Source of the DNA: Patescibacteria group bacterium
Lineage (GTDB): Bacteria > Patescibacteriota > Microgenomatia > Levybacterales > UBA12049
DNA: 64,000 nucleotides
NCBI GenBank assembly: GCA_035457005.1
Contig: DATICB010000001.1
Span: forward strand, 3,246 to 67,245
Direction of reading: 5' to 3'
Part shown: in pieces, positions 960 to 45,203 of the stretch
How positions within the stretch are numbered: position 1 is the stretch's first letter
How the letters are laid out: each line of letters starts with the position of its first letter
The notes under the pieces: generated by a model
What the model saw: the letters and a program-made list of their open reading frames with translations, nothing else
The model's database searches: none
Told to the model about the DNA's origin: nothing
Translations under genes and position numbers: made by a program

Positions 960-1442
960 ATGACAAGCAGTGGAACTATTTTTATGGAAGGAAGATCACC
1001 AGAAATTTTGTCTCAGAAAACAGAAGCAACAGATCAGGGATTTAGTGAAAAAAGGGCTGCAAGAATTACCGAGGGAAAACAAGCAGATAATTCACAATTA
1101 TCCAAAAGAAAACATTTGCCCGAACCCAAACAAAAGCCTGTCAGGACAAGTAGAACCGATAACGGGCAAGTAAAGCCACTCAAAAGGGCTGCACGAGTAG
1201 AGCCGTCTCTTAAAGAAAAACTTCTTGCTGCCTATAGTGATAATGCAAAGGCAATAGGAGAGATGGCTACAAGCCTTACTGTTCTGTCAACATCTTCAGT
1301 TGAGGCAGCAGCAGAATTGATGACGGCAATGCGGACAAAACAAAAACTGCAGGAGCAGCTTCTTAATGCGTTGGAGGCAGAAAGTAAAGGTGAGTTGACA
1401 GAAGACACTCTTCCCAAAGAGCTACAAGATTTGATAAAATAG
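960..1442 (+). CDS. hypothetical protein (charged, low complexity)
   Basis: 160-aa ORF with no recognisable motif. Confidence 0.35.
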   Translation: MTSSGTIFMEGRSPEILSQKTEATDQGFSEKRAARITEGKQADNSQLSKRKHLPEPKQKPVRTSRTDNGQVKPLKRAARVEPSLKEKLLAAYSDNAKAIGEMATSLTVLSTSSVEAAAELMTAMRTKQKLQEQLLNALEAESKGELTEDTLPKELQDLIK

Positions 1443-1515
1443 GGTTTAGCAGTGCTTAGGGCATAGGGCAAAGAAAAAAATCTTAGCTCTTCGCGCTAAG
1501 CTCTTTGCATCAAAA

Positions 1516-1562
1516 GGGTAGCTAGTTCAGCGGCAGAACGGTCGCCTGAGGCGACAGGTGCA
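1516..1562 (+). pseudogene. 5' portion of tRNA-like gene X (acceptor 5' strand, D arm, 15-nt anticodon arm, variable region)
   Basis: GGGTAGC TA GTTC AGCGGCA GAAC G GTCGC CTGAG GCGAC AGGTG. The anticodon arm is 2 nt shorter than canonical (5-nt loop). The segment AGCGGnAGAACGGTCGCCTGAGGCGACAGGTGCA is repeated at 1886-1919. Confidence 0.55.
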
Positions 1563-1578
1563 ATAATATATAAACAGT

Positions 1579-1821
1579 ATGTTCTCTGTTTATGTATTGA
1601 AAAGCTTAGCAAACGGTAGGTTATACACAGGTTCTACAAATAATGTAGAAAGACGACTAAGAGAACATAATGCAGGACAAACAAAATATACACGATCAAC
1701 AAGGCCATTCGTGTTAATCTACCAAGAGGTCTATGACACAAAGGTAGAAGCAATTAGAAGAGAAAGATTTTTAAAAACAGGAAAAGGAAGGGAATTATTA
1801 AAACAGATTTTGGGCATTTAG
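1579..1821 (+). CDS. GIY-YIG nuclease family protein (YhbQ/UPF0213-like, 80 aa)
   Basis: VYVLKS..GRLYTGST.NVERRLREHN is a GIY-YIG core. The stop codon overlaps the first bases of tRNA-Ile. Confidence 0.75.
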   Translation: MFSVYVLKSLANGRLYTGSTNNVERRLREHNAGQTKYTRSTRPFVLIYQEVYDTKVEAIRRERFLKTGKGRELLKQILGI

Positions 1822-1886
1822 TTCAGCGGTAGAACGCTTCTCTGATAAAGAAGAGGTGGATGGTCCGACTCCATCAGTGCCCACCA
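1812..1886 (+). tRNA. tRNA-Ile(GAT)
   Basis: Acceptor GGGCATT/AGTGCCC (one G-U pair). D arm GTTC AGCGGTA GAAC. Anticodon stem CTTCT/AGAAG with loop CTGATAA. T arm GATGG TCCGACT CCATC. CCA encoded. Confidence 0.8.
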
Positions 1887-1942
1887 GCGGTAGAACGGTC
1901 GCCTGAGGCGACAGGTGCATGGTCCGACTCCATGGCTACCCA
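1886..1942 (+). pseudogene. 3' portion of tRNA-like gene X (D loop through acceptor 3' strand)
   Basis: AGCGGTAGAAC G GTCGC CTGAG GCGAC AGGTG CATGG TCCGACT CCATG GCTACCC A. The acceptor 3' strand pairs perfectly with GGGTAGC at 1516. No CCA encoded. Confidence 0.55.
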
Positions 1943-1950
1943 CAGGAAAA

Positions 1951-2190
1951 TTATAGTGATCCACTGCGAGAAATTCGCCTATCACAACCTTTACACTTAC
2001 GACTTCCTCCACGGGTAATGCCACCAGGAGTATCTAATCTATTAAGTTCACATGGTGCCTGTGAGTCACCTGACCCTGTTGCTGGATCGACAACAACACG
2101 ATCATAAATTCCTGTTTTTGGATTTCTTGTTGTGGTTGCTAGTCCTTGTTCTGGTGGCAATCCTCTTATTGGACAATCTGGTGTGGACAT
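1951..2190 (-). CDS. small Cys4 Pro/Gly-rich protein, paralog 1 of 3
   Basis: Shares ..DCPI.., S.D.SAPC and a C-terminal CxxC(D/R)R with the two neighbours. GC-richer than surrounding sequence. Confidence 0.55.
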   Translation of the reverse strand: MSTPDCPIRGLPPEQGLATTTRNPKTGIYDRVVVDPATGSGDSQAPCELNRLDTPGGITRGGSRKCKGCDRRISRSGSL

Positions 2191-2218
2191 AAAATAAGTA
2201 ACTTTAAAAATAAAAAAA

Positions 2219-2464
2219 TCAATTCCTTGGTCTTACTGATCTTCTGCATGCAGCACACTGTGGTGGTGTAGGTCCACCTCTTTGCATTTGCTCTATTGCG
2301 CAAGGTGCGCTTGGGTCTGGAGATGCATGTGGTGGTCTTGGTCCAAGAGTTGCTCGTTGTCCTCCTGCAGTCACGTCAAGTGTTCTATTATCTCCTGCTT
2401 GTGGTGCTGGACATTCGCTATAAGACATAGAAGGTATTATATGGTGGTAATTGAAAATTGGCAA
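2219..2464 (-). CDS. small Cys4 Pro/Gly-rich protein, paralog 2 of 3 (start may be the internal Met, MSYSEC)
   Basis: SPDPSAPC ... QCAACRRSVRPRN, paralogous to the neighbours. Confidence 0.5.
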   Translation of the reverse strand: MPIFNYHHIIPSMSYSECPAPQAGDNRTLDVTAGGQRATLGPRPPHASPDPSAPCAIEQMQRGGPTPPQCAACRRSVRPRN

Positions 2465-2476
2465 GAGGGAATTATG

Positions 2477-2728
2477 TTAGTTGGTATCAATTGGCATAGT
2501 TGTTGTCGTAATTTCTCTGTGGCAGCGACGACATGACGAAGATCTTGTTCCTGTGGGAGTATCTGCAGCTGGAATAGGAATCTCTGTTGCTCTGCAAGGA
2601 GCAGATAGATCTGGACTGCCAGATGGAGAAGTCCAACGAACTCTTGTTCGTTTTTGTGGTCCAACAATGTCTAATTGCCTTACGCCTAGTCTCTCAATCT
2701 GATCTATCCCACAGTCCTGTCTTGGCAT
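2477..2728 (-). CDS. small Cys4 Pro/Gly-rich protein, paralog 3 of 3
   Basis: MPRQDCGI ... SPDLSAPC ... SCRRCHRE, paralogous to the neighbours. Confidence 0.55.
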   Translation of the reverse strand: MPRQDCGIDQIERLGVRQLDIVGPQKRTRVRWTSPSGSPDLSAPCRATEIPIPAADTPTGTRSSSCRRCHREITTTTMPIDTN

Positions 2729-2735
2729 AGTGATT

Positions 2736-3098
2736 TTATTTTACTTCGTTAAATTTCCCATCCAAGAGGATGTAAAAAAGGTCAACTTTTAAATGTGGAT
2801 ATTTTGCCAAAATAGTTTTTTTGGCTTTTAGTAAATCTTCTGCATGGCGCTCAGGTGTAGATTCTGCACCATATGCACCACAATTTTCATGATGCATCAG
2901 GACAACTTGTTTAATGTCATGAAGTTTAACACAAAGATCTATTTGCTTCATGACTGTGTCAAGCTCTTTTGACCCGCCTGCATAGCCGACATAATCAAAT
3001 GTTTTGTCACCAAAATTGTCATCCAACCATTTTCTAATAAATTTTTGAAATCTAAAGTCAATGCAGCTAACGACCAATGCATCACATGTGTGTGCCAT
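2736..3098 (-). CDS. short beta-carbonic-anhydrase-like protein (120 aa)
   Basis: CxDxR (VVSCIDFRF) and HxxC (MHHENCGA) motifs with beta-CA-like spacing, but the protein is much shorter than a canonical beta-CA. Confidence 0.4.
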   Translation of the reverse strand: MAHTCDALVVSCIDFRFQKFIRKWLDDNFGDKTFDYVGYAGGSKELDTVMKQIDLCVKLHDIKQVVLMHHENCGAYGAESTPERHAEDLLKAKKTILAKYPHLKVDLFYILLDGKFNEVK

Positions 3099-3202
3099 AG
3101 GGAATTATTATACGCCTGATTTTTTTGTTTGACAAGAATTTTGTCAGGATTTGGTTTTGTACATTTCAAGCACTTGACAGGAAAACGTGAGAGTATGGTA
3201 GT

Positions 3203-3511
3203 ATGATGATACTCATGCAGGGGAGTCTCCACACAAGTACCAAAGAATGTCTACAAAAAGATTTCCAAACTGTTGCCCGTCAAGTTGCTCGTAAACGGAA
3301 AAGACCTGTATCTTATTTAGCTTTTGCAAAGCGTACCACACATGGGTACGCTTTTTTTGAATCTATCCAGGAAGAGGTATGGGACATGCTTCATAAAATT
3401 GCAAAAACAGTACACAGTCTTCATCCGGAATATGAATTTTCATTGGTTGCTGATGTCTGTTCGGATATGGCAAACAGCATTGATTTTTCTCCAATATCAT
3501 CAGAAATATAG
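3203..3511 (+). CDS. hypothetical protein
   Basis: 102-aa ORF preceded by TTGACA-17-TAGTAT; no recognisable motif. Confidence 0.25.
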   Translation: MMILMQGSLHTSTKECLQKDFQTVARQVARKRKRPVSYLAFAKRTTHGYAFFESIQEEVWDMLHKIAKTVHSLHPEYEFSLVADVCSDMANSIDFSPISSEI

Positions 3512-4288: not shown

Positions 4289-4894
4289 TTACTGGGCGGA
4301 GGGTGTGCCAACTGTGGGCGTTGTGGATGGTGTTATGGTTATTGTATAGTCTGTTGTTTTTTTCAAAACTGATTCTATAATTCTATCTGCAGTCACCGCT
4401 GTTTTGGGTAAAAAGCTTATGGTTGTTGTTCCGGAAAATGTTGGGCTAACAGTATAGAAAAGGAGTGCAACAGTGCCTGTTCCTTTTTTGCCGGGCAAAT
4501 CAATTTGCTCAGTGAGTGCGTAAGAAATTCTGCCGCCAATTGTATCGATTGTATTAATCAAAGGACTCGGCTGCTGAAAAAAATCGCCGGGAGTAATAGT
4601 GACATTGGTCAGTGCTTGCGGGTCGTAGGCAAACTCGAGTTGTACTGAGTTGACGACATTGTCACCAGTGTCTATATGGACAGCAAGCGTTTGTTGGGTA
4701 AGTTGGGACGAGCTAGACGCATTTGCTGGGGTAATAGTAAGAGTGGTATGTGCATTAACCGATACTGGGGTTGGTGTTGGTTGTTGCGCTGGTGTTTGTT
4801 TTTTCTGATAAGGCGTTGAGACAAGTGCAAGATACAAAAGACCACAGGTGAGAAGAAAGAGAAAAAGAATTAACGCGAGCGTTTTTTTACTCAT
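4289..4894 (-). CDS. signal-anchored cohesin-like domain protein
   Basis: N-terminal TM segment. VQLEFAYDPQALTNV resembles the cohesin YDP..L motif. Paralogous to 62321-63328. Confidence 0.55.
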   Translation of the reverse strand: MSKKTLALILFLFLLTCGLLYLALVSTPYQKKQTPAQQPTPTPVSVNAHTTLTITPANASSSSQLTQQTLAVHIDTGDNVVNSVQLEFAYDPQALTNVTITPGDFFQQPSPLINTIDTIGGRISYALTEQIDLPGKKGTGTVALLFYTVSPTFSGTTTISFLPKTAVTADRIIESVLKKTTDYTITITPSTTPTVGTPSAQ

Positions 4895-4942: not shown

Positions 4943-7243
4943 TTAGTCTCCCGTGCATTTATTATTTGTTTGACCGCATGCGGTTACCAAGCTTCTCACC
5001 CATAAATTATAATTGAATGACCACTCATCGCCGGTTGTTCCTCCGTCTGGATAATCAAAGAAGTTCATAACATCGCCACAGGTAAATGTAATCGTCTGAT
5101 TTCCTGACACCATAGATTGTGGTGTTGTTGGATTTTGATTGCGACACGTTCGCAAAATATTGTAATCAAGTCCATTAATAACGTCATCTTGTCCCAAATT
5201 GCCTGTCCTGCCATCGACAATATCTCCCGGCAGAGGATAGACAGTAACGGTATTGGCAACACCAGAAGTAAGGGATATTTTTTCACCTTTACTACTGCTT
5301 TTACGTGCAAAGGCTTTGAGGAATTGAGGCACGCCAATATACACACGAAATTCTTTGGCAGTGGTGTAGGGAAGGACGCCAACATTAATAGGACTACTCA
5401 CAAACAGTCCAGTTGAGGAGTTATACGTGAGCGTTGTAGTTGTCCTGGTAGACGCATTGCCGCTTTGGTCAAAAATAACCACTCCTACATTGTTGCGGGT
5501 CTGATGGGCTGGATTTTTATTCTCAAAGTCCCCTGTCCCAATTCCTGGTAATTTGACATTTAGGGTAACTGTTGTTGTTTTACAAACAGTTGTTGGGATG
5601 TAGGTAGTTGGGCTGCTGTATGGACCGGTACAGGTATTGGTTTGTACTTTGTACGCTGCACCAAAGTTTTTTGCATTACTGTCATAACAACTTGTTCCCA
5701 AACTTCTGCTTGCTTTTAAGGATGAAGAAACAGTAAAAGCAGTACTTGTTGAGGAAGTGTTGCACTCATTGTATTCATCTTTCCCACTGACATCTCTGTG
5801 GAACCACCAATCAAGAATGTATTTGGTTGCACCACTTTTTGCCTTCACATTTGCCTTCACCCCAGCAAGTGTTGTCCCCGAGCAAACAGGGGAGAGGACA
5901 AGATCTGATTGTGCCGGCTTATCAGTACAGACATTAGGAGTATTTGATGTAAGCTGTTGTTGTTTTGGGTCGGCTTTGGTTGGGTCGTAGGGAGCACAGC
6001 AGGTATAATTTGATCCTTTAGCACATTTATAGGTAGGGTCTGCCTTTGTCCCTGCTTGGCAGGATGTTTGACACGCATCTGCGGTCTTGTATACTGTCTC
6101 ACAAGATGGCGCTGGAGCTGGTGTTGAGGTGGGAGCTTTGAGAGTTGGGTTTTGGGAGGCCACATAGCAACATTTTATATTCACACCGACACTTGCCATA
6201 CAGCCACTACTATTAGTGATTTCATGTGAACCACTCACCCCTAAATCTTGTTGAACCATCGTGCTACAGGGAATGGGTTGTATATTTGGACAGGTACCTG
6301 CTATTTGTGTAGCTATGTTAAATGGATCGAAGTATGGAGAACAAAAATTGACCATTACTGGGGACCATTGGTGAGAATAGGCACTTCCAGTAAATACGGC
6401 AGGGTAGTAACAGATGCCTTTCTCTGTTGCGCCATTTACAGTTCCACTACAAGAGTTTGCACCAGATGGAAGAGGCGCAGCTGTTGGGGTAGGGGTGATG
6501 GTAGGCTTGCCAGGGATACAACATTTTGCCACTGGAGTTCCTGGCAACGAGGTACTACAGGCACTTTCATTCACCGAAGATTCTGCTGCACCACTTGTGT
6601 TAGTCAAAGCGTCACATGAGGGGAGTGCTGTAGAATTGTTTGCTTTTGTTGCTACGTTTTTAGGGTTATTTGTATAGGTAGAGCCATAATTATTATGATA
6701 ATAACAAAGTCCATTATTTGTTGGTCCACAAGATTTTGCTGCATAAACTGTCCCATCAGACCCAGTTACTGGTACAGATTTTGGAGTAGGAGCGGCTTTG
6801 GGAGCAGTGTAGCCACATTTCCCATCTTGGTAATGACAGTTTGCTTTTGTTGTATAGGTACTGCATGTATTGCCACTAACATCACATATTTGCTGTCCTA
6901 CACATTGGCTATACTGCGTGTAATTATGGCAGTCTCTTTTTGCAAGGCAGCAAATATTACCAGATTTAGTAGGACATTCAGTGGTTTTAGCAGTGTAAAT
7001 ATCTGCACAATTCTCTGCAGATGTACAGAACGCTCCAGTTGCAACAGTTGAACATGTAACGGTGGTTGTACTTCCACCACCACCTTCAACCATGGCATGT
7101 TGTTGGGTGTTGGTTTGTTGGGGCAAGACTTGGACAGTCACAATAGTCCCGACAATCAAAATAAGGACAAGAAGGACTCCAAGGGTTCGGGAGTGAGTGG
7201 GAGAAAAAAGAAAGTTTTTTAGCTGTTGTAATTTTTCTTTCAT
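4943..7243 (-). CDS. large secreted Cys/Thr/Asn-rich protein (766 aa) with a C-terminal dockerin-like segment
   Basis: N-terminal TM anchor and about 60 Cys. C-terminal DDVINGLDYNIL resembles a dockerin Ca-binding repeat. Confidence 0.55.
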   Translation of the reverse strand: MKEKLQQLKNFLFSPTHSRTLGVLLVLILIVGTIVTVQVLPQQTNTQQHAMVEGGGGSTTTVTCSTVATGAFCTSAENCADIYTAKTTECPTKSGNICCLAKRDCHNYTQYSQCVGQQICDVSGNTCSTYTTKANCHYQDGKCGYTAPKAAPTPKSVPVTGSDGTVYAAKSCGPTNNGLCYYHNNYGSTYTNNPKNVATKANNSTALPSCDALTNTSGAAESSVNESACSTSLPGTPVAKCCIPGKPTITPTPTAAPLPSGANSCSGTVNGATEKGICYYPAVFTGSAYSHQWSPVMVNFCSPYFDPFNIATQIAGTCPNIQPIPCSTMVQQDLGVSGSHEITNSSGCMASVGVNIKCCYVASQNPTLKAPTSTPAPAPSCETVYKTADACQTSCQAGTKADPTYKCAKGSNYTCCAPYDPTKADPKQQQLTSNTPNVCTDKPAQSDLVLSPVCSGTTLAGVKANVKAKSGATKYILDWWFHRDVSGKDEYNECNTSSTSTAFTVSSSLKASRSLGTSCYDSNAKNFGAAYKVQTNTCTGPYSSPTTYIPTTVCKTTTVTLNVKLPGIGTGDFENKNPAHQTRNNVGVVIFDQSGNASTRTTTTLTYNSSTGLFVSSPINVGVLPYTTAKEFRVYIGVPQFLKAFARKSSSKGEKISLTSGVANTVTVYPLPGDIVDGRTGNLGQDDVINGLDYNILRTCRNQNPTTPQSMVSGNQTITFTCGDVMNFFDYPDGGTTGDEWSFNYNLWVRSLVTACGQTNNKCTGD

Positions 7244-10483: not shown

Positions 10484-10759
10484 TTAGTGACCCCTTCTAA
10501 AAGCATGTACATACGCTCCTGCTGCTGCAGCAAGATCACGCATTGCTTGTGCATCTCTTTGTTGTGTATTTCTAGCATTGAATCCTACGCCCCTTTGACT
10601 TCCGATTGCACGACTAACATGCGTTCGGACGTGATGTCTTGTTGCTGCGTCTCCATGTCGACGCGAGCTGTCTAGCAATGGTGCTGCTGCTTCCCATCCC
10701 GCTCTGTTGCGGTCTATTAGCTGTTGCATTCCTTGCTCTAGTCTTTGTTGAATTGTCAT
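10484..10759 (-). CDS. hypothetical Arg/Ala-rich protein (GC-rich ORF)
   Basis: 91-aa ORF; coding strand uncertain because a + strand ORF overlaps it. Confidence 0.25.
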   Translation of the reverse strand: MTIQQRLEQGMQQLIDRNRAGWEAAAPLLDSSRRHGDAATRHHVRTHVSRAIGSQRGVGFNARNTQQRDAQAMRDLAAAAGAYVHAFRRGH

Positions 10760-10860: not shown

Positions 10861-11085
10861 GTGTCAGACAGACGATTACCAATTTTTAGAGCATCTCAAG
10901 GACAGTGTGAAAATTTAGAAGCAAACGGGCATTGTGGATTAAGGCGACCAGTTCCTGGTTCTCAATTTTTGGGCACTCCACGTTACGATGGCCCTTTCCC
11001 AATGGATCCAGGTACAGGAGATTGCAATTTTAGAAATGAACCAGCATTTCAGCGACTTTGCCGTAAGTACAAACGAAATAATTAG
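10861..11085 (+). CDS. small Cys4 Pro/Gly-rich protein (possible distant member of the 1951-2728 family)
   Basis: 74 aa with 4 Cys. DPGTGDC is comparable to DPATGSGD..APC; basic C-terminus. Confidence 0.35.
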   Translation: MSDRRLPIFRASQGQCENLEANGHCGLRRPVPGSQFLGTPRYDGPFPMDPGTGDCNFRNEPAFQRLCRKYKRNN

Positions 11086-11354
11086 GCTTAAGAAAAATTA
11101 GCGCCTTTTTGCAGGTGATGGTGTTGGTTGGTTTTCTTGTGGCGTTTGTCCACTCTGACGACCAAGATCTCTCATCTGATCCGCTGTTGTTGCAGCTTTT
11201 TCTCTTCGAGCACCACGTCTTTTTTGACGCCAAAACTCTAAAACAGCGGCAATTACGTTTGGTTGGGAAGTTTGTCTTTGCTTTTCCATAATGGCTGCAT
11301 TGTAGATCCATCATGTTTATTTGTCAAATACAGAAATGTGATATAACTAAAACA

Positions 11355-14175: not shown

Positions 14176-14723
14176 ATAGTTGACCAGTCTACTATACCAA
14201 GTTGTCTTAATTTTTTCTTTGCTTCTTGTAATCCGAATTTTTCTATAAATGCTGCTTTTGTTTCTCTTAATTCATATGGCAAGATGATCCACCCATTTAA
14301 TTGTTCCTCATAAAAATGAGGAACATATTTTGTCCGTGGTTTTATGTACAAAGAGGCAGTGATAAACGACATTACGTTTGATTCTTTGAGATACGCAGTT
14401 GCACGGAGAAATGTTGCGCCGGAATCAGCTAATTCGTCAACTAAAAGGATTTTTTCATTGGTAAATTTCTTAGAAAGCAGGTGCGTAATTACCGGAGTTT
14501 TTTGTTGGTCAAAATTTTTATATGACTCAATAGTAATAAAGGAAATTCTTGCGTCAAGGATGTCTGAAAGAATTCGACTTAAAACAATACCTCCTCTGGC
14601 AATCGCAATGATTTCATCTATTCTTCCATATTCATCGCGAATTTTTTTTGCAAGAGAAATTGCATCTTTTTCATATCTTTGCCAAGAAATAGGAATAAAT
14701 TTTTTTGTAGCTTTTTTATTCAT
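14172..14723 (-). CDS. purine phosphoribosyltransferase
   Basis: ILLVDELADSGATF is a PRPP-binding motif. Confidence 0.7.
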   Translation of the reverse strand: MNKKATKKFIPISWQRYEKDAISLAKKIRDEYGRIDEIIAIARGGIVLSRILSDILDARISFITIESYKNFDQQKTPVITHLLSKKFTNEKILLVDELADSGATFLRATAYLKESNVMSFITASLYIKPRTKYVPHFYEEQLNGWIILPYELRETKAAFIEKFGLQEAKKKLRQLGIVDWSTI

Positions 14724-14976
14724 TAGCTATTTGTAAATGAAAATTCCCAAAAGGGATACGTACTAATCCGTCCCAGGGCGTTATTACTGCTCCATCAATA
14801 TCTGCCGATCCATGTGTTTGACGAACCGATGGGTTGTTGGTAATTGTTTTGCTGTGTTTTCCTCGCCGAAGCGTTACAGTCGTTGGGCGATGCGCATCGT
14901 GAAGCACATGTTCCCTTGTTGCAGGAATACCGTTGATTGTTGTACCAGGAGGAATATCGTGAATTCTCGTTGTCAT
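14716..14976 (-). CDS. hypothetical protein (86 aa from the internal Met, MTTRIHD)
   Basis: Fills the gap exactly between the LOG stop and the PRT start, with short overlaps, so it is probably part of the operon. Confidence 0.4.
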   Translation of the reverse strand: MTTRIHDIPPGTTINGIPATREHVLHDAHRPTTVTLRRGKHSKTITNNPSVRQTHGSADIDGAVITPWDGLVRIPFGNFHLQIANE

Positions 14977-16681: not shown

Positions 16682-16981
16682 GTGTCAAACATTACAGAAA
16701 CACCTGAATTTAGGGAAAACAGACAATTCGTCAGAGATATGATCCCCATTTTTAGAGGGAGTATGGAACGAGGAGAAATGACGTGGGAAGAAGTTGTCGC
16801 TGCTACAAAAGGACTCCGCAGGCAATTTCAATTTAATCGGAATGGCCAGGCAGAACGAGTCAGGCCAGTAGAGCCGATGGTTCCTTCAATTGAAACGATC
16901 CGTGCGTACGAAGCAGCAAGGAACAGACAAGAGTGGGATGAAGTACATCGACAAATAGCAAGACGACGAAGACATTGGTAA
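16682..16981 (+). CDS. hypothetical protein
   Basis: GTG start, 99 aa, Arg-rich C-terminus. Confidence 0.35.
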   Translation: MSNITETPEFRENRQFVRDMIPIFRGSMERGEMTWEEVVAATKGLRRQFQFNRNGQAERVRPVEPMVPSIETIRAYEAARNRQEWDEVHRQIARRRRHW

Positions 16982-21106: not shown

Positions 21107-21345
21107 AAACTCTTCTTGACGGGTTTAGAAAAATTCATGTATAGTATTTTCCATGAGATGGAGACCAAATGGAACACATAGAGTAAGAAGAGGAATTGCT
21201 GAACCAAATGTTCATGCTGGGCCCGTTGAGACTCGAGCAATTTTGGGAAGACCCACCTCAAAGAGAAAGAAACATCAGCAAAGAGTGGAGAAAAGTCGCG
21301 CACATGATCCCGAACAGGGTGGAAGACGAGAAGAAGAGTAGAACT

Positions 21346-22491: not shown

Positions 22492-22686
22492 ATGGCAGAA
22501 CAAAAGTTCGGAGACGATTATACAGGTAGCCCACAGCATTGGGATGATTATGGTGTGGAACCATCCACTCCAGAACCTGCTCGCCCTGCACCAACACCAA
22601 GACGATTGACTCCAAAACAACAACAAGAAGCTAGGAGAGCAGCAACAAGTCTTCCACCGCCTAGATCTACAGGAAAACAGAAATAA
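22492..22686 (+). CDS. hypothetical small Pro-rich protein
   Basis: ORF only. Confidence 0.25.
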   Translation: MAEQKFGDDYTGSPQHWDDYGVEPSTPEPARPAPTPRRLTPKQQQEARRAATSLPPPRSTGKQK

Positions 22687-22745: not shown

Positions 22746-22958
22746 TTGACGAAAAAGTTATTCAATGGCTATAATCGCTCCATGACAAAAGGACAGGCTA
22801 GGACAGGAAATGGAAGGCGCTACAGGAGGCCACATGGTAAACCCAAGGAAGAGCTAGACGAAGAGGGAAATGTAATTAAAAGAGGAAGGTTCCGTAGTGG
22901 GCGTATCGACCTTAAGCAAGAAAGGCAGTGGGAGCGGAATCCAGAACAAGAAGAGTAA
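22746..22958 (+). CDS. hypothetical small basic protein
   Basis: ORF only. Confidence 0.25.
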   Translation: MTKKLFNGYNRSMTKGQARTGNGRRYRRPHGKPKEELDEEGNVIKRGRFRSGRIDLKQERQWERNPEQEE

Positions 22959-30444: not shown

Positions 30445-30636
30445 ATGGCCAACAAACCTAAGGAGTATGGTGTTGCACCCGATTCTCCACGAACGCAGGA
30501 TAGTGTTACTAGAAGAATAGGAGAATTAGGTGATGCAACACGGCGGAGAGGTTTGGACATTTATTCCTTTTTAAGACTCCGTCGATTGGGGCAAAAAATT
30601 GATAATGGTGATTACCATGAGGACAGATTTCATTGA
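30445..30636 (+). CDS. hypothetical small protein
   Basis: ORF only. Confidence 0.25.
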   Translation: MANKPKEYGVAPDSPRTQDSVTRRIGELGDATRRRGLDIYSFLRLRRLGQKIDNGDYHEDRFH

Positions 30637-39138: not shown

Positions 39139-39525
39139 TTGGAGTATTTTGTTCTATTGATAGAAAAACAATTTTTTCGTAACATGCTTGTTATGAGTCT
39201 ATTTGGTGGACAACAAGATCCAAATGCAAAAAGAAGAGCACAGCGAAGAGCTGGAGTAAAAGCTGCTTTAGAAGCAGAGCGCTCGCGAGTAAGAGCAGCT
39301 GATGAATTAGCAACGCAGCATGCTGATGAAGCACAAAGAAATCTTTGGGCAGGTCTTATGCTGGAAGGTGTACGTGCTGGCATACCAGTAGGAAGACAGC
39401 AACAAGAAGAAATTACAGCAGCAGAAAGAAGAGGTGCGGAAGGGACATTGGGTGCAATGGAAAGAATGAGAGTTGGTAGTAATGGTAACGGGCAAAATGG
39501 ACAAAATGGACATCACGAGCGTTAA
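39139..39525 (+). CDS. hypothetical Arg/Gln/Glu-rich protein ending in a NGQNG tail
   Basis: GC-richer ORF, compositionally similar to 39739-40224. Confidence 0.4.
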   Translation: MEYFVLLIEKQFFRNMLVMSLFGGQQDPNAKRRAQRRAGVKAALEAERSRVRAADELATQHADEAQRNLWAGLMLEGVRAGIPVGRQQQEEITAAERRGAEGTLGAMERMRVGSNGNGQNGQNGHHER

Positions 39526-44381: not shown

Positions 44382-44567
44382 ATGATTGGGGAGACCGATG
44401 AAGAAATTGTGGCAAGAACACCTACAGTAAGTTTTGTCACCAGACTTTTGCAAAGAAGGTTGCAAAAAATGGAAGCGGGAAAAATTGTGGAGAATGGATC
44501 AGGCTCAGATGGTTCTGTAAAAGCAGCAGGAAGTCAAGACAGGCCGGGAAAAAGAAGACAAGCATAA
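44382..44567 (+). CDS. hypothetical small protein
   Basis: Strong SD AAAGGAGGT 7 nt upstream of the ATG. Confidence 0.4.
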   Translation: MIGETDEEIVARTPTVSFVTRLLQRRLQKMEAGKIVENGSGSDGSVKAAGSQDRPGKRRQA

Positions 44568-44966: not shown

Positions 44967-45203
44967 TTAATTTCTTCGTCCTCGACACTGTCCTCTTTGA
45001 GCCACTGCAATCACACTAGTTGCAATTTGTTCGGTGGTTGGAGTGCTGCCATCCCTTGGTTGTGCTCGAATAACGCCTTCTGTATAGCAATTTCGTGAAA
45101 GACCTCTAACACAGACAGAACCAACACAGGCACCAAATGTTGTTGGTGTTGTTGTGTCATCACTCCAGATTGTTGCTGGACCCTCCTGCGTTGCGTATGC
45201 CAT
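44967..45203 (-). CDS. small Cys4 protein with Arg-rich tail (possible distant member of the 1951-2728 family)
   Basis: 78 aa, GC-richer, ends QCRGRRN. Confidence 0.3.
   Translation of the reverse strand: MAYATQEGPATIWSDDTTTPTTFGACVGSVCVRGLSRNCYTEGVIRAQPRDGSTPTTEQIATSVIAVAQRGQCRGRRN

What the first reader, a model, noticed from the sequence alone, without database searches (positions are those of the whole stretch)
1951..2728. Three tandem paralogous ~80-aa Cys4 Pro/Gly-rich proteins on a GC-rich islet beside the tRNA locus
The minus-strand ORFs 1951-2190, 2219-2464 and 2477-2728 share an N-terminal (D/E)C(P/G) motif, a central S(P/G)D.S(A/Q)APC motif and a C-terminal CxxC(D/R)R followed by an Arg-rich tail. 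This gives four conserved Cys, a zinc-ribbon-like pattern. The local GC content is visibly higher than the flanking sequence, and the position next to a tRNA/GIY-YIG junction suggests horizontally acquired cargo. Possible distant relatives, judged by size, Cys4 spacing, DPxTG and RRN tails, are 10861-11085 and 44967-45203. No known family is recognisable.
Basis: seen in the sequence. Interest (0 to 1): 0.6.

Follow-up and report, generated by a model that had tools for sequence, protein, structure and literature searches.

The report
Orphan tandem four-cysteine mini-protein genes
Three neighbouring genes in an uncultured Patescibacteria genome encode real, related ~70-85-residue proteins with four invariant cysteines; they belong to a tiny lineage-restricted family with no known relatives, fold or function, and are most likely small metal-binding proteins, not a recently imported island.

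Summary
The minus-strand ORFs 1951-2190 (A), 2219-2428 (B) and 2477-2728 (C) are paralogues. They are significantly similar only in that reading frame (z 4.4-7.2). Each has exactly four cysteines, at aligned positions. B most likely starts at ATG 2428, not TTG 2464.

An exhaustive profile search of 1.84 billion protein representatives found one further member, P0009 (88 aa). It lies on a 713-bp metagenome contig in the same position: directly after a beta-carbonic-anhydrase-like gene and before a tRNA.

No match was found in Pfam, NCBIfam, PHROGs, PADLOC or PDB sequences. The AlphaFold model (pLDDT 66) matched no solved structure.

Parts of the interpretation fail:
- The pattern C-x36-42-C-x14-21-C-x2-C is not a canonical zinc ribbon.
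- GC is only modestly raised (0.44 against 0.40). This comes from amino-acid composition, because GC3 is below the genome's.
- The proposed relatives at 10861 and 44967 are unrelated.

The slot between the carbonic-anhydrase-like gene and tRNA-Ile does vary among relatives.

Best reading: cytosolic, basic, Pro/Gly-rich mini-proteins folded around one Cys4 metal site. They would be expressed from leaderless-type promoters and are evolving fast by duplication and decay. Function is not established. Interest is modest.

The parts
2477..2728 (-). Cys4 mini-protein gene C (83 aa; Cys 6/45/66/69). It starts 7 nt after the stop of the carbonic-anhydrase-like gene. It is the positional and sequence orthologue of P0009.
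   Evidence: ORF. NCBI VLB73_00055 (P0001). C against P0009: 39% identity, tblastn E=5e-6, SW z=17.6. Codon log-likelihood +0.09, GC3 0.27.
2219..2428 (-). Cys4 mini-protein gene B (69 aa from ATG 2428; Cys 6/43/58/61).
   Evidence: NCBI VLB73_00050 is 69 aa (P0003). The promoter-like site ends 8 nt upstream of ATG 2428. B-C z=7.2, A-B z=4.4.
1951..2190 (-). Cys4 mini-protein gene A (79 aa; Cys 6/47/66/69), 28 nt downstream of B across an AT-rich spacer. Probably co-transcribed with B.
   Evidence: NCBI VLB73_00045 (P0002). A-C z=6.6, A-P0009 z=7.1. Codon log-likelihood +0.21, GC3 0.16.
2436..2464 (-). Sigma-70-like promoter candidate TTGCCA-17-TATAAT in the C-B spacer. Its -10 box ends 8 nt before the ATG of B (leaderless-type geometry).
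   Evidence: 11 of 12 consensus matches. The same -10-to-ATG geometry occurs at many bona fide genes of the window. This is a consensus match only; no expression data.
3107..3135 (-). Sigma-70-like promoter candidate TTGTCA-17-TATAAT upstream of the carbonic-anhydrase-like gene. Likely drives that gene plus gene C.
   Evidence: 11 of 12 matches; geometry. Co-transcription is inferred from the 7-nt gap.
2736..3098 (-). Upstream gene of the operon: 120-aa beta-carbonic-anhydrase-like protein (Pfam Pro_CA_2) with CxDxR and HxxC motifs. It is the conserved anchor of the locus.
   Evidence: PF20393 E=3.3e-15. 80 metagenome loci carry homologues at 61-83% identity. The C-terminus of a homologue precedes P0009 in L001.
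1885..1943 (+). tRNA-like remnant (D loop to acceptor 3' end) that bounds the array on its downstream side. It converges on gene A, 8 nt from A's stop codon.
   Evidence: Direct repeats D2 and D3; sequence. L001 ends in a near-identical T arm and acceptor.

Best explanation
A, B and C are real, expressed protein-coding genes. They form an old tandem array of a very small, lineage-restricted family of cytosolic mini-proteins (69-88 aa).

Proposed working, with the basis of each step:
1. Transcription (inferred). Two leaderless-type promoters act on the minus strand. One lies before the carbonic-anhydrase-like gene and would carry gene C with it across a 7-nt gap. The other lies in the C-B spacer and would carry B and A.
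2. Fold (composition shown; metal site inferred). The chains are hydrophilic, basic (pI about 9) and rich in Pro, Gly, Ser and Thr. They have about half the hydrophobic content of the proteome, and no signal peptide or membrane segment. Such a chain cannot form an ordinary hydrophobic core. The four invariant cysteines would together bind one metal ion, most likely Zn(II). These are one near the N-terminus, one in the central SAPC motif, and a CxxC knuckle at the turn of a C-terminal beta hairpin. The metal would tie the three parts into a compact fold.
3. Activity (speculative). The Arg/Lys-rich surface around the knuckle suggests binding to a polyanion such as RNA or DNA, or to an acidic partner protein.
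4. Evolution (shown). The family evolves by duplication, rapid divergence of the loops between fixed cysteines, and decay. It sits in a slot between the carbonic-anhydrase-like gene and tRNA-Ile whose content differs among related genomes.
For: Coding and paralogy:
- Similarity is specific to one frame.
- Codon usage is native and GC3 is low.
- NCBI called all three as genes.
- The homologue P0009 was found at E=2e-4 against 1.84e9 proteins with a profile built only from A, B and C. It keeps an intact 88-codon ORF, while its antisense frames carry stops.
- P0009 lies in the same position, after ...ILLDGTFNEVK* of a carbonic-anhydrase-like gene and before a tRNA T arm.

Expression signals:
- Promoter-like sites score 11 of 12.
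- The genome lacks Shine-Dalgarno motifs and often places the -10 box 6-8 nt before the ATG, including at gene B.

Metal-site inference:
- All four members have exactly four Cys, all aligned, at 27-43% overall identity.
- Aliphatic plus aromatic residues make up 12-19% against 34% in the proteome. Pro plus Gly make up 17-26% against 12%. pI is 8.9-9.2, and the highest 15-residue hydropathy is 0.55 or less.
- The AlphaFold model (pLDDT 66, pTM 0.56) has two beta hairpins, with CxxC at the turn between strands 60-65 and 72-79.

Age and turnover:
- Synonymous sites are saturated in all pairs.
- L001 has a second, frameshifted and truncated copy that still shows 'EDC' and 'DPTQSCQLDN'.
- The slot holds other genes in L082, L083 and L084.
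Against: - There is no direct evidence of transcription, translation or metal binding.
- Only one CxxC knuckle is present. Two distant single cysteines are an unusual ligand set.
- The first AlphaFold run (3 sequences) gave pLDDT 44. The better model is only medium confidence, and I could not read its coordinates to check whether the four Cys lie close together.
- No fold or sequence match to any metal-binding family.
- Four Cys could equally form two disulfides if the proteins are exported.
- With only four members, dN/dS cannot be estimated (synonymous sites saturated). Purifying selection beyond the Cys and motif columns is therefore not demonstrated.
- The nucleic-acid-binding step rests on charge alone.
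Confidence: 0.5

Rival explanations
1. Exported, disulfide-stabilised mini-proteins, in the manner of an effector, toxin or bacteriocin. The four Cys would form two disulfides that hold a scaffold while the loops diversify quickly. This would fit molecules that act on a host or competitor of an episymbiotic Patescibacterium.
For: - The Cys count is even and invariant while the loops diverge fast. C and P0009 share 39% identity, whereas the adjacent carbonic-anhydrase-like tail is 10 of 11 identical.
- The genes lie in a variable genomic slot and show copy-number change and decay.
- The family is restricted to one narrow lineage.
- The window also encodes large Cys-rich secreted proteins, for example 4943-7243.
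Against: - No signal peptide or hydrophobic N-terminus; highest hydropathy 0.55 or less.
- No transporter, peptidase or immunity gene nearby; the neighbours are housekeeping genes.
- The CxxC sits in an Arg/Lys-rich hairpin, which is more typical of a zinc knuckle.
Confidence: 0.15
2. Precursor peptides of a ribosomally synthesised, post-translationally modified peptide (RiPP). Several tandem Cys/Ser/Thr-rich precursors would be modified by a maturase, for example by thioether or radical-SAM chemistry.
For: - The array consists of tandem paralogous small Cys/Ser/Thr-rich ORFs.
- The neighbouring 160-aa ORF 960-1442 gives a weak Nif11 match, E=0.0044, below the Pfam cut-off.
Against: - No radical-SAM, lanthionine synthetase, YcaO, peptidase or ABC exporter gene lies in the roughly 14 kb read on the one side, or in the 1.9 kb available on the other.
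- Conservation is spread over the N-terminus, centre and C-terminus, not split into a conserved leader and a variable core.
- In L001 the gene again sits next to only the carbonic-anhydrase-like gene and a tRNA.
Confidence: 0.04
3. Recently acquired horizontal cargo of a tRNA-targeting mobile element. The three genes would have arrived together with the GIY-YIG/tRNA junction.
For: - The slot next to tRNA-Ile holds different genes in related contigs.
- A GIY-YIG gene and duplicated tRNA pieces lie directly beside gene A.
- GC is in the 92.6th percentile.
Against: - GC3 and codon usage are native.
- The 35-nt direct repeat brackets only GIY-YIG plus tRNA-Ile (1528-1919), not the Cys4 genes.
- No integrase or recombinase was seen in the flanks.
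- L001 has the same gene order.
- The paralogues and P0009 are saturated at synonymous sites, so the array is old.
- No phage or viral-contig relatives.
- L138 has the GIY-YIG/tRNA-Ile module without Cys4 genes.
Confidence: 0.1
4. Not genes at all. The ORFs would be chance or antisense products of a DNA repeat, a non-coding RNA, or plus-strand genes.
For: - The plus-strand ORFs 1919-2107 and 2481-2702 also score as coding-like (+0.12, +0.16), because they share the wobble position with A and C.
- There are no expression data.
Against: - Only the minus ORF frame shows similarity between units.
- No DNA repeat family covers the units, and the DNA alignment is poor.
- No Rfam match even at E up to 1.
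- ORF 1919-2107 starts inside the tRNA-like remnant.
- The P0009 ORF is intact in another organism, while its antisense frames are interrupted.
Confidence: 0.04

Closest known systems
Zinc-ribbon / zinc-knuckle mini-domains (Pfam clan Zn_Beta_Ribbon; for example the zinc forms of ribosomal proteins L32, L33 and L36)
   Same: Small size, four Cys, and a CxxC knuckle predicted at a beta-hairpin turn. Basic residues surround the knuckle. The hydrophobic core is too small to fold without a metal.
C(P)XCG zinc-finger micro-proteins of Haloferax volcanii (PMC11241148)
   Same: Stand-alone prokaryotic proteins of about 70 aa or fewer, predicted from cysteine patterns alone, many of unknown function. 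That paper also shows that such predictions are not always borne out; its title says most bind zinc but several do not.
   Different: [quoted passage not shown] The proteins here have a single CxxC, no CPxCG, and long Pro/Gly-rich spacers. They come from a different domain of life, and no homology is detectable.
Cysteine-scaffold, hypervariable-loop secreted peptides (defensin or conotoxin type evolution; from my own knowledge, not tested)
   Same: Invariant, even-numbered Cys framework, rapidly diverging inter-Cys loops, tandem gene duplication and decay.
   Different: No signal peptide or pro-region. Far fewer Cys per residue. Bacterial and probably cytosolic. No export machinery nearby.
The second small Cys family in the same genome (window 10861-11085 and L083 3645-3905)
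   Same: Similar size (74-86 aa), four Cys, Pro/Gly-rich, basic tail, lineage-restricted, and no Pfam or NCBIfam match for 10861-11085.
   Different: No significant similarity to A, B, C or P0009. The Cys pattern differs: C-x7-9-C ... C-x11-13-C.

Membership tests
Zinc ribbon (two-knuckle Cys4 beta-ribbon) | Two CxxC/CxxH knuckles, each at a beta-hairpin turn | tested here: not met
   All members have one CxxC plus two isolated Cys. Pattern: C-x36-42-C-x14-21-C-x2-C.
Zinc ribbon (two-knuckle Cys4 beta-ribbon) | Sequence match to a curated zinc-ribbon model | tested here: not met
   No Pfam or NCBIfam family at E up to 1, apart from a below-threshold Stomagen hit. No PDB sequence hit better than E=1.
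Zinc ribbon (two-knuckle Cys4 beta-ribbon) | Structural match to solved zinc-ribbon folds | tested here: not met
Zinc ribbon (two-knuckle Cys4 beta-ribbon) | Stoichiometric binding of Zn(II) by the four Cys | not testable with these tools
   Needs recombinant protein and metal analysis. I could not inspect the model coordinates for Cys proximity.
C(P)XCG zinc-finger micro-proteins | [quoted passage not shown] | tested here: not met
   Sequences show a single CxxC (CKGC, CAAC, CRRC, CRRC) and no CPxCG. Definition taken from PMC11241148.
RiPP precursor peptide cluster | Adjacent maturase, protease or exporter genes | tested here: not met
   The neighbours are a glycosyltransferase, tRNAs, GIY-YIG, a carbonic-anhydrase-like gene, a CofE-like gene, a cohesin-domain protein, dCTP deaminase, a cupin and thymidylate synthase. 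Only 1.9 kb is available on the left side.
RiPP precursor peptide cluster | Conserved leader plus variable core architecture | tested here: not met
   Conserved columns are spread over the N-terminus, centre and C-terminus.
tRNA-linked genomic island (horizontally acquired) | Composition or codon usage deviating from the host genome | tested here: not met
   GC3 is 0.16-0.27 against 0.31. Codon log-likelihood of +0.09 to +0.21 lies within the in-frame range of bona fide genes. GC is at the 92.6th percentile only.
tRNA-linked genomic island (horizontally acquired) | Integrase or recombinase, and att-type direct repeats bracketing the cargo | tested here: not met
   The 35-nt repeat brackets GIY-YIG plus tRNA-Ile (1528-1919), not 1951-2728. 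No integrase among the flanking ORFs.
tRNA-linked genomic island (horizontally acquired) | Presence/absence polymorphism among related genomes | tested here: met
   The Cys4 gene is present in L001. L082, L083 and L084 (carbonic-anhydrase-like protein 81-83% identical) carry other small genes in the slot. It is absent from 77 more distant carbonic-anhydrase-like loci.
The Cys4 family itself (A, B, C, P0009) | Significant sequence similarity plus four aligned Cys. Applied to the candidates 10861-11085, 44967-45203 and P0011. | tested here: not met
   10861 and 44967: hhalign probability 0.1%, SW z<1, and no HMM hit. P0011 (L083 5340-5558): same Cys spacing and 'DCPI', but hhalign aligns only 12 N-terminal residues (E=0.019) and SW z is 1.7 or less. 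Its membership is unproven.

The most novel reading that the evidence does not exclude
The four proteins define a new metal-knotted (or disulfide-knotted) mini-protein fold. It would be confined to one Patescibacteria lineage, with fixed cysteines and fast-diverging loops as the signature of an arms-race molecule. Examples are a small effector or inhibitor acting on the host cell, on phage, or on the neighbouring GIY-YIG/tRNA mobile module. The genes would be housed in a tRNA-adjacent hot spot where this lineage repeatedly swaps small Cys-rich genes: different ones sit in L083, L082 and L084, and a look-alike (P0011) lies on the other side of the tRNA pair in L083.
Probability: 0.12. Interest if true: 0.55.

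Novelty: new variant of a known kind. Interest (0 to 1): 0.3.

Why it matters
If these are metal-binding mini-proteins, they add an uncatalogued Cys4 architecture: one knuckle plus two distant single ligands. They would come from the least-characterised part of bacterial proteomes, the small lineage-specific proteins of Patescibacteria. They would also illustrate how such genes are born, duplicated and lost at a tRNA-adjacent slot. In practice the result is mainly a clean-up. With four known members and no functional clue, their wider importance is limited for now.

Tried and rejected
- **Known RNA families.** Rfam over the whole window at gathering threshold, and over 1400-3200 at E up to 1, found only the two tRNAs. 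A non-coding RNA reading is rejected.
- **Protein family libraries and PDB sequences.** Pfam, NCBIfam, PHROGs, PADLOC and a PDB sequence profile gave nothing usable.
- **Homologue searches.** Three word-indexed searches returned only the window's own proteins, P0009 and P0011. The exhaustive HMM search added only P0009. Its other hits are C2H2 zinc-finger arrays and repeat proteins that match short stretches many times, so they are artefacts.
- **Locus scans with the alignment.** I used neighbouring genes as anchors instead: CofE-like in GTDB genomes and carbonic-anhydrase-like in metagenomes. I then scanned six-frame ORFs of all 160 loci with the family HMM. No new member appeared. The one hit below E=0.1, L068 at E=0.0045, comes from an alphaproteobacterial contig; I did not examine it and think it probably spurious.
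- **Regular-expression scan for the Cys pattern.** It gave 6 hits in 12,337 ORFs: the 4 members, P0011 and one obvious false positive.
- **Phage origin.** tblastn against 50,697 phage genomes with A and C, and a viral-contig scan with C, found nothing.
- **dN/dS.** Synonymous sites are saturated (pS 0.58-0.77), so it is uninformative.
- **Group I intron in the split tRNA-like sequence.** I considered this after finding PMC13011429. I rejected it because there is no intron model hit and the insert is bracketed by a 35-nt direct repeat and contains a whole tRNA-Ile.
Full report
**1. What is in the sequence**

The window is from a Patescibacteria MAG. NCBI tags VLB73_00045, 00050 and 00055 correspond to the three ORFs. 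On the minus strand lie, in transcriptional order:
- a 120-aa beta-carbonic-anhydrase-like gene, 2736-3098 (Pfam Pro_CA_2, E=3.3e-15);
- ORF C, 2477-2728, 7 nt further on;
- ORF B, 2219-2428;
- ORF A, 1951-2190, after a 28-nt AT-rich spacer.

Eight nucleotides beyond A's stop, on the other strand, the tRNA/GIY-YIG junction ends.

The three proteins align over their whole length at 27-28% identity. They share M-x3-(D/E)-C-(P/G), S-(P/G)-D-x-S-(A/Q)-A-P-C and C-x2-C-x-R. Each has exactly four Cys, all in aligned columns.

**2. Is it more than chance, and which strand?**

I translated each unit in all six frames and compared units by Smith-Waterman with shuffling. Only the minus ORF frame gives significant scores: z 4.9-7.6, with 0 of 200 shuffles reaching the observed score. 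No same-frame comparison in any other frame exceeds z=1.3. A repeat with 1000 shuffles gave z 4.4-7.2.

At the DNA level the units barely align, and no repeat family covers them.

Codon usage of A, B and C (+0.21, +0.13, +0.09 per codon) falls in the in-frame range of 23 long genes of the window (mean +0.21, 5th percentile +0.08). It is far from the off-frame mean of -0.36.

The plus-strand ORFs 1919-2107 and 2481-2702 also score positive, but only because they share the wobble position with A and C. The first begins inside the tRNA-like remnant (the 'MVRLHG' reading of the T arm, which appears again in L083). ORF 2282-2536 scores -0.345.

Rfam finds no RNA family in the region, even at E up to 1.

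**3. Relatives elsewhere**

Word-indexed searches found only the genome's own proteins.

I searched 1.84 billion representatives exhaustively with a profile built from A, B and C alone. This returned one convincing outsider, P0009 (88 aa, E=2e-4, full-length match). The remaining hits were repeat artefacts.

P0009 has four Cys at the aligned positions. It is closest to C: 39% identity, tblastn E=5e-6, z=17.6.

Its 713-bp contig (L001) is informative:
- It opens with the last codons of a carbonic-anhydrase-like gene (...ILLDGTFNEVK*, 10 of 11 identical to the window's).
- P0009 starts 5 nt later.
- A frameshifted, truncated second copy follows ('MTHPEDC...', '...DPTQSCQLDNV').
- Next comes an unrelated 64-aa ORF on the other strand.
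- The contig ends in a tRNA T arm and acceptor almost identical to window 1913-1943.

The locus architecture is thus shared by a second, clearly diverged organism. Synonymous differences are frequent even in the carbonic-anhydrase-like tail.

**4. Synteny and the 'islet' idea**

I used the neighbouring genes as anchors and fetched two sets of loci:
- 80 GTDB loci for the CofE-like gene;
- 80 metagenome loci for the carbonic-anhydrase-like gene, at 61-83% identity.

I then scanned all six-frame ORFs with the family HMM. No further member was found.

The three closest loci keep the surrounding order: glycosyltransferase, tRNA-Cys, a 146-167-aa protein, tRNA-Ile, the slot, the carbonic-anhydrase-like gene. 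Their slots are filled differently:
- L083 has an unrelated 75-aa Cys-containing ORF.
- L082 has a 113-aa membrane ORF on the opposite strand.
- L084 has 111-aa and 133-aa ORFs.

In more distant loci a glycosyltransferase or another gene follows directly.

The compositional argument does not survive:
- GC is 0.441 against 0.397, the 92.6th percentile, and about 30 segments of the window are as GC-rich.
- The excess lies in codon positions 1 and 2 (GC2 0.63-0.70, reflecting Pro, Gly, Ala and Arg). GC3 is 0.16-0.27, below the genome's 0.31.
- The 35-nt direct repeat brackets GIY-YIG plus tRNA-Ile, not the Cys4 genes.
- No integrase is nearby.
- There are no phage or viral-contig relatives.
- All pairs are saturated at synonymous sites.

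The array is old and native to this lineage.

**5. The proposed distant relatives**

ORFs 10861-11085 (+) and 44967-45203 (-) show no relationship to the family: hhalign probability 0.1%, SW z<1, and no HMM hit.

ORF 10861-11085 is nevertheless a real gene of a different small Cys family. It matches an 86-aa ORF in L083 (BLASTP 9e-7, z=10.6).

An ORF in L083 between the glycosyltransferase and tRNA-Cys (P0011, 73 aa) has 'DCPI', Cys at 6/48/62/65 and a basic CxxC region. It was one of only two extra hits of a Cys-pattern expression in 12,337 ORFs. Alignment statistics do not support homology. I list it as possible only.

**6. Expression signals**

This genome almost never shows a Shine-Dalgarno motif. 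Many bona fide genes instead have a TAnAAT box ending 6-8 nt before the ATG, which is the geometry of leaderless mRNAs.

The two best promoter-like sites in 1400-3400 (11 of 12 consensus positions) have this geometry and lie on the minus strand. One precedes the carbonic-anhydrase-like gene (3135-3107). The other precedes ATG 2428 of B (2464-2436). This supports the 69-aa form of B and a two-transcript layout: carbonic-anhydrase-like gene plus C, and B plus A. These are consensus matches, not measurements.

**7. What the proteins are likely to be**

Properties:
- pI 8.9-9.2 and GRAVY -0.7 to -0.9.
- Aliphatic plus aromatic residues 12-19%, against 34% in the proteome sample.
- Pro plus Gly 17-26%, against 12%.
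- No hydrophobic stretch, so no signal peptide or membrane segment.

A chain like this cannot build a normal core. The invariant cysteines are the obvious folding determinant.

With five sequences AlphaFold gives a medium-confidence model (pLDDT 66, pTM 0.56). It has two beta hairpins and two short helices, and the CxxC sits on the turn of the C-terminal hairpin. With three sequences the model was unusable. The model matches no solved structure.

My best reading is a single tetrathiolate metal site, most likely Zn. It would join the N-terminal Cys, the central SAPC Cys and the C-terminal knuckle. The Arg/Lys-rich surface around the knuckle hints at binding a polyanion. The metal site is inferred, and the ligand target is speculative.

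The main rival is an exported two-disulfide scaffold with fast-evolving loops. It would fit the rapid divergence and the variable slot, but it lacks any export signal or machinery.

A RiPP reading lacks a maturase and a leader/core pattern.

**8. Comparison with known kinds**

The family behaves like a zinc-knuckle mini-protein but fails every testable membership criterion of zinc ribbons: there are not two knuckles, no model hit and no fold hit. It also fails the definition of the haloarchaeal C(P)XCG micro-proteins (PMC11241148). It is best described as a new, very small family within the general kind 'stand-alone Cys4 mini-proteins'.

**9. Verdict**

The finding is a genuine orphan gene family, but nothing points to an unusual mechanism. 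Interest is 0.3.

Noticed in passing
window 1516-1943 (+); also L138 4300-4738 (-) and L058 1940-2370 (+): A small GIY-YIG gene (1579-1821, 80 aa, PF01541 E=7e-18) sits between a degenerate 5' copy of a tRNA and an intact tRNA-Ile(GAT) at 1812-1886. The 5' copy (1516-1562) has the acceptor and D arm and a hairpin with only a 5-nt 'anticodon' loop. A second partial copy follows at 1885-1943, and a 35-nt direct repeat links 1528-1562 to 1885-1919. Joining the two partial copies gives a cloverleaf, but neither copy is complete. The same layout recurs in L138 (5' tRNA-like fragment, GIY-YIG at 64% identity, tRNA-Ile) and in L058 (degenerate 5' copy of tRNA-Arg, GIY-YIG, intact tRNA-Arg). L082, L083 and L094 have tRNA-Ile without it. 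It looks like a recurrent GIY-YIG element that inserts at tRNA genes and leaves a duplicated tRNA piece.
   Followed up: partly
window-wide; examples upstream of 3530, 2736, 2428, 33369, 53306, 58367, 14973, 44967: Almost no gene has a Shine-Dalgarno motif. Many have a TATAAT/TACAAT box ending 6-8 nt before the ATG. This suggests that leaderless mRNAs are the main mode of expression in this genome.
   Followed up: partly
window 10861-11085 (+); L083 3645-3905 (-): This is a second, unrelated family of small four-Cys Pro/Gly-rich proteins. It has a shared 'C..L..NG.CG' motif, then a G(D/E)C.FR..P motif and a further Cys about 7-8 residues on. The two ORFs match at BLASTP 9e-7 and z=10.6. The window copy has a TTGACA-17-TATAGT site 8 nt before its GTG start.
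   Followed up: partly
window 44967-45203 (-): A 78-aa four-Cys ORF with native codon usage (+0.22) and a TATAAT box at -12. It has no Pfam, NCBIfam or PHROG hit, no homologue in any fetched locus, and no relation to the Cys4 family.
   Followed up: partly
L083 5340-5558 (-) (= P0011, 73 aa) and L083 4369-4596 (+), 3159-3542 (-): The closest relative contig carries several other small Cys-containing, Pro/Gly-rich ORFs around the same tRNA-Cys/tRNA-Ile pair. P0011 copies the Cys spacing (6/48/62/65) and 'DCPI' of the family but has no significant alignment to it. NCBI labels it as from 'Candidatus Eisenbacteria', although its contig shares gene order with this Patescibacteria window.
   Followed up: partly
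window 10484-10759, 11098-11289, 14716-14976, 16739-16981, 21153-21341, 22492-22686, 22782-22958, 30445-30636, 39184-39525, 44382-44567: There are many 58-113-aa ORFs between longer genes. They have coding-like codon usage and very hydrophilic, Arg/Gln/Pro-rich, Cys-free sequences. I did not test whether they are real small proteins.
   Followed up: no
window 960-1442 (+); L083 4681-5121; L082 2391-2894: A 146-167-aa protein is conserved between tRNA-Cys and tRNA-Ile in the three related loci, at 34-50% identity. Its only family signal is a sub-threshold Nif11 match at the C-terminus, E=0.0044.
   Followed up: partly
window 4943-7243 (-) and 4289-4894 (-): A 766-aa secreted-looking protein, very rich in Cys, Thr and Asn, with no Pfam domain. 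It lies next to a 201-aa protein with an N-terminal hydrophobic segment and a cohesin domain, E=1.8e-5.
   Followed up: no
L001 466-660 (-): In the P0009 contig, a 64-aa basic, helical-looking ORF (MSRRKKTPEERVADALEQFRK...) lies between the decayed second Cys4 copy and the tRNA. It has no counterpart at this position in the window.
   Followed up: no
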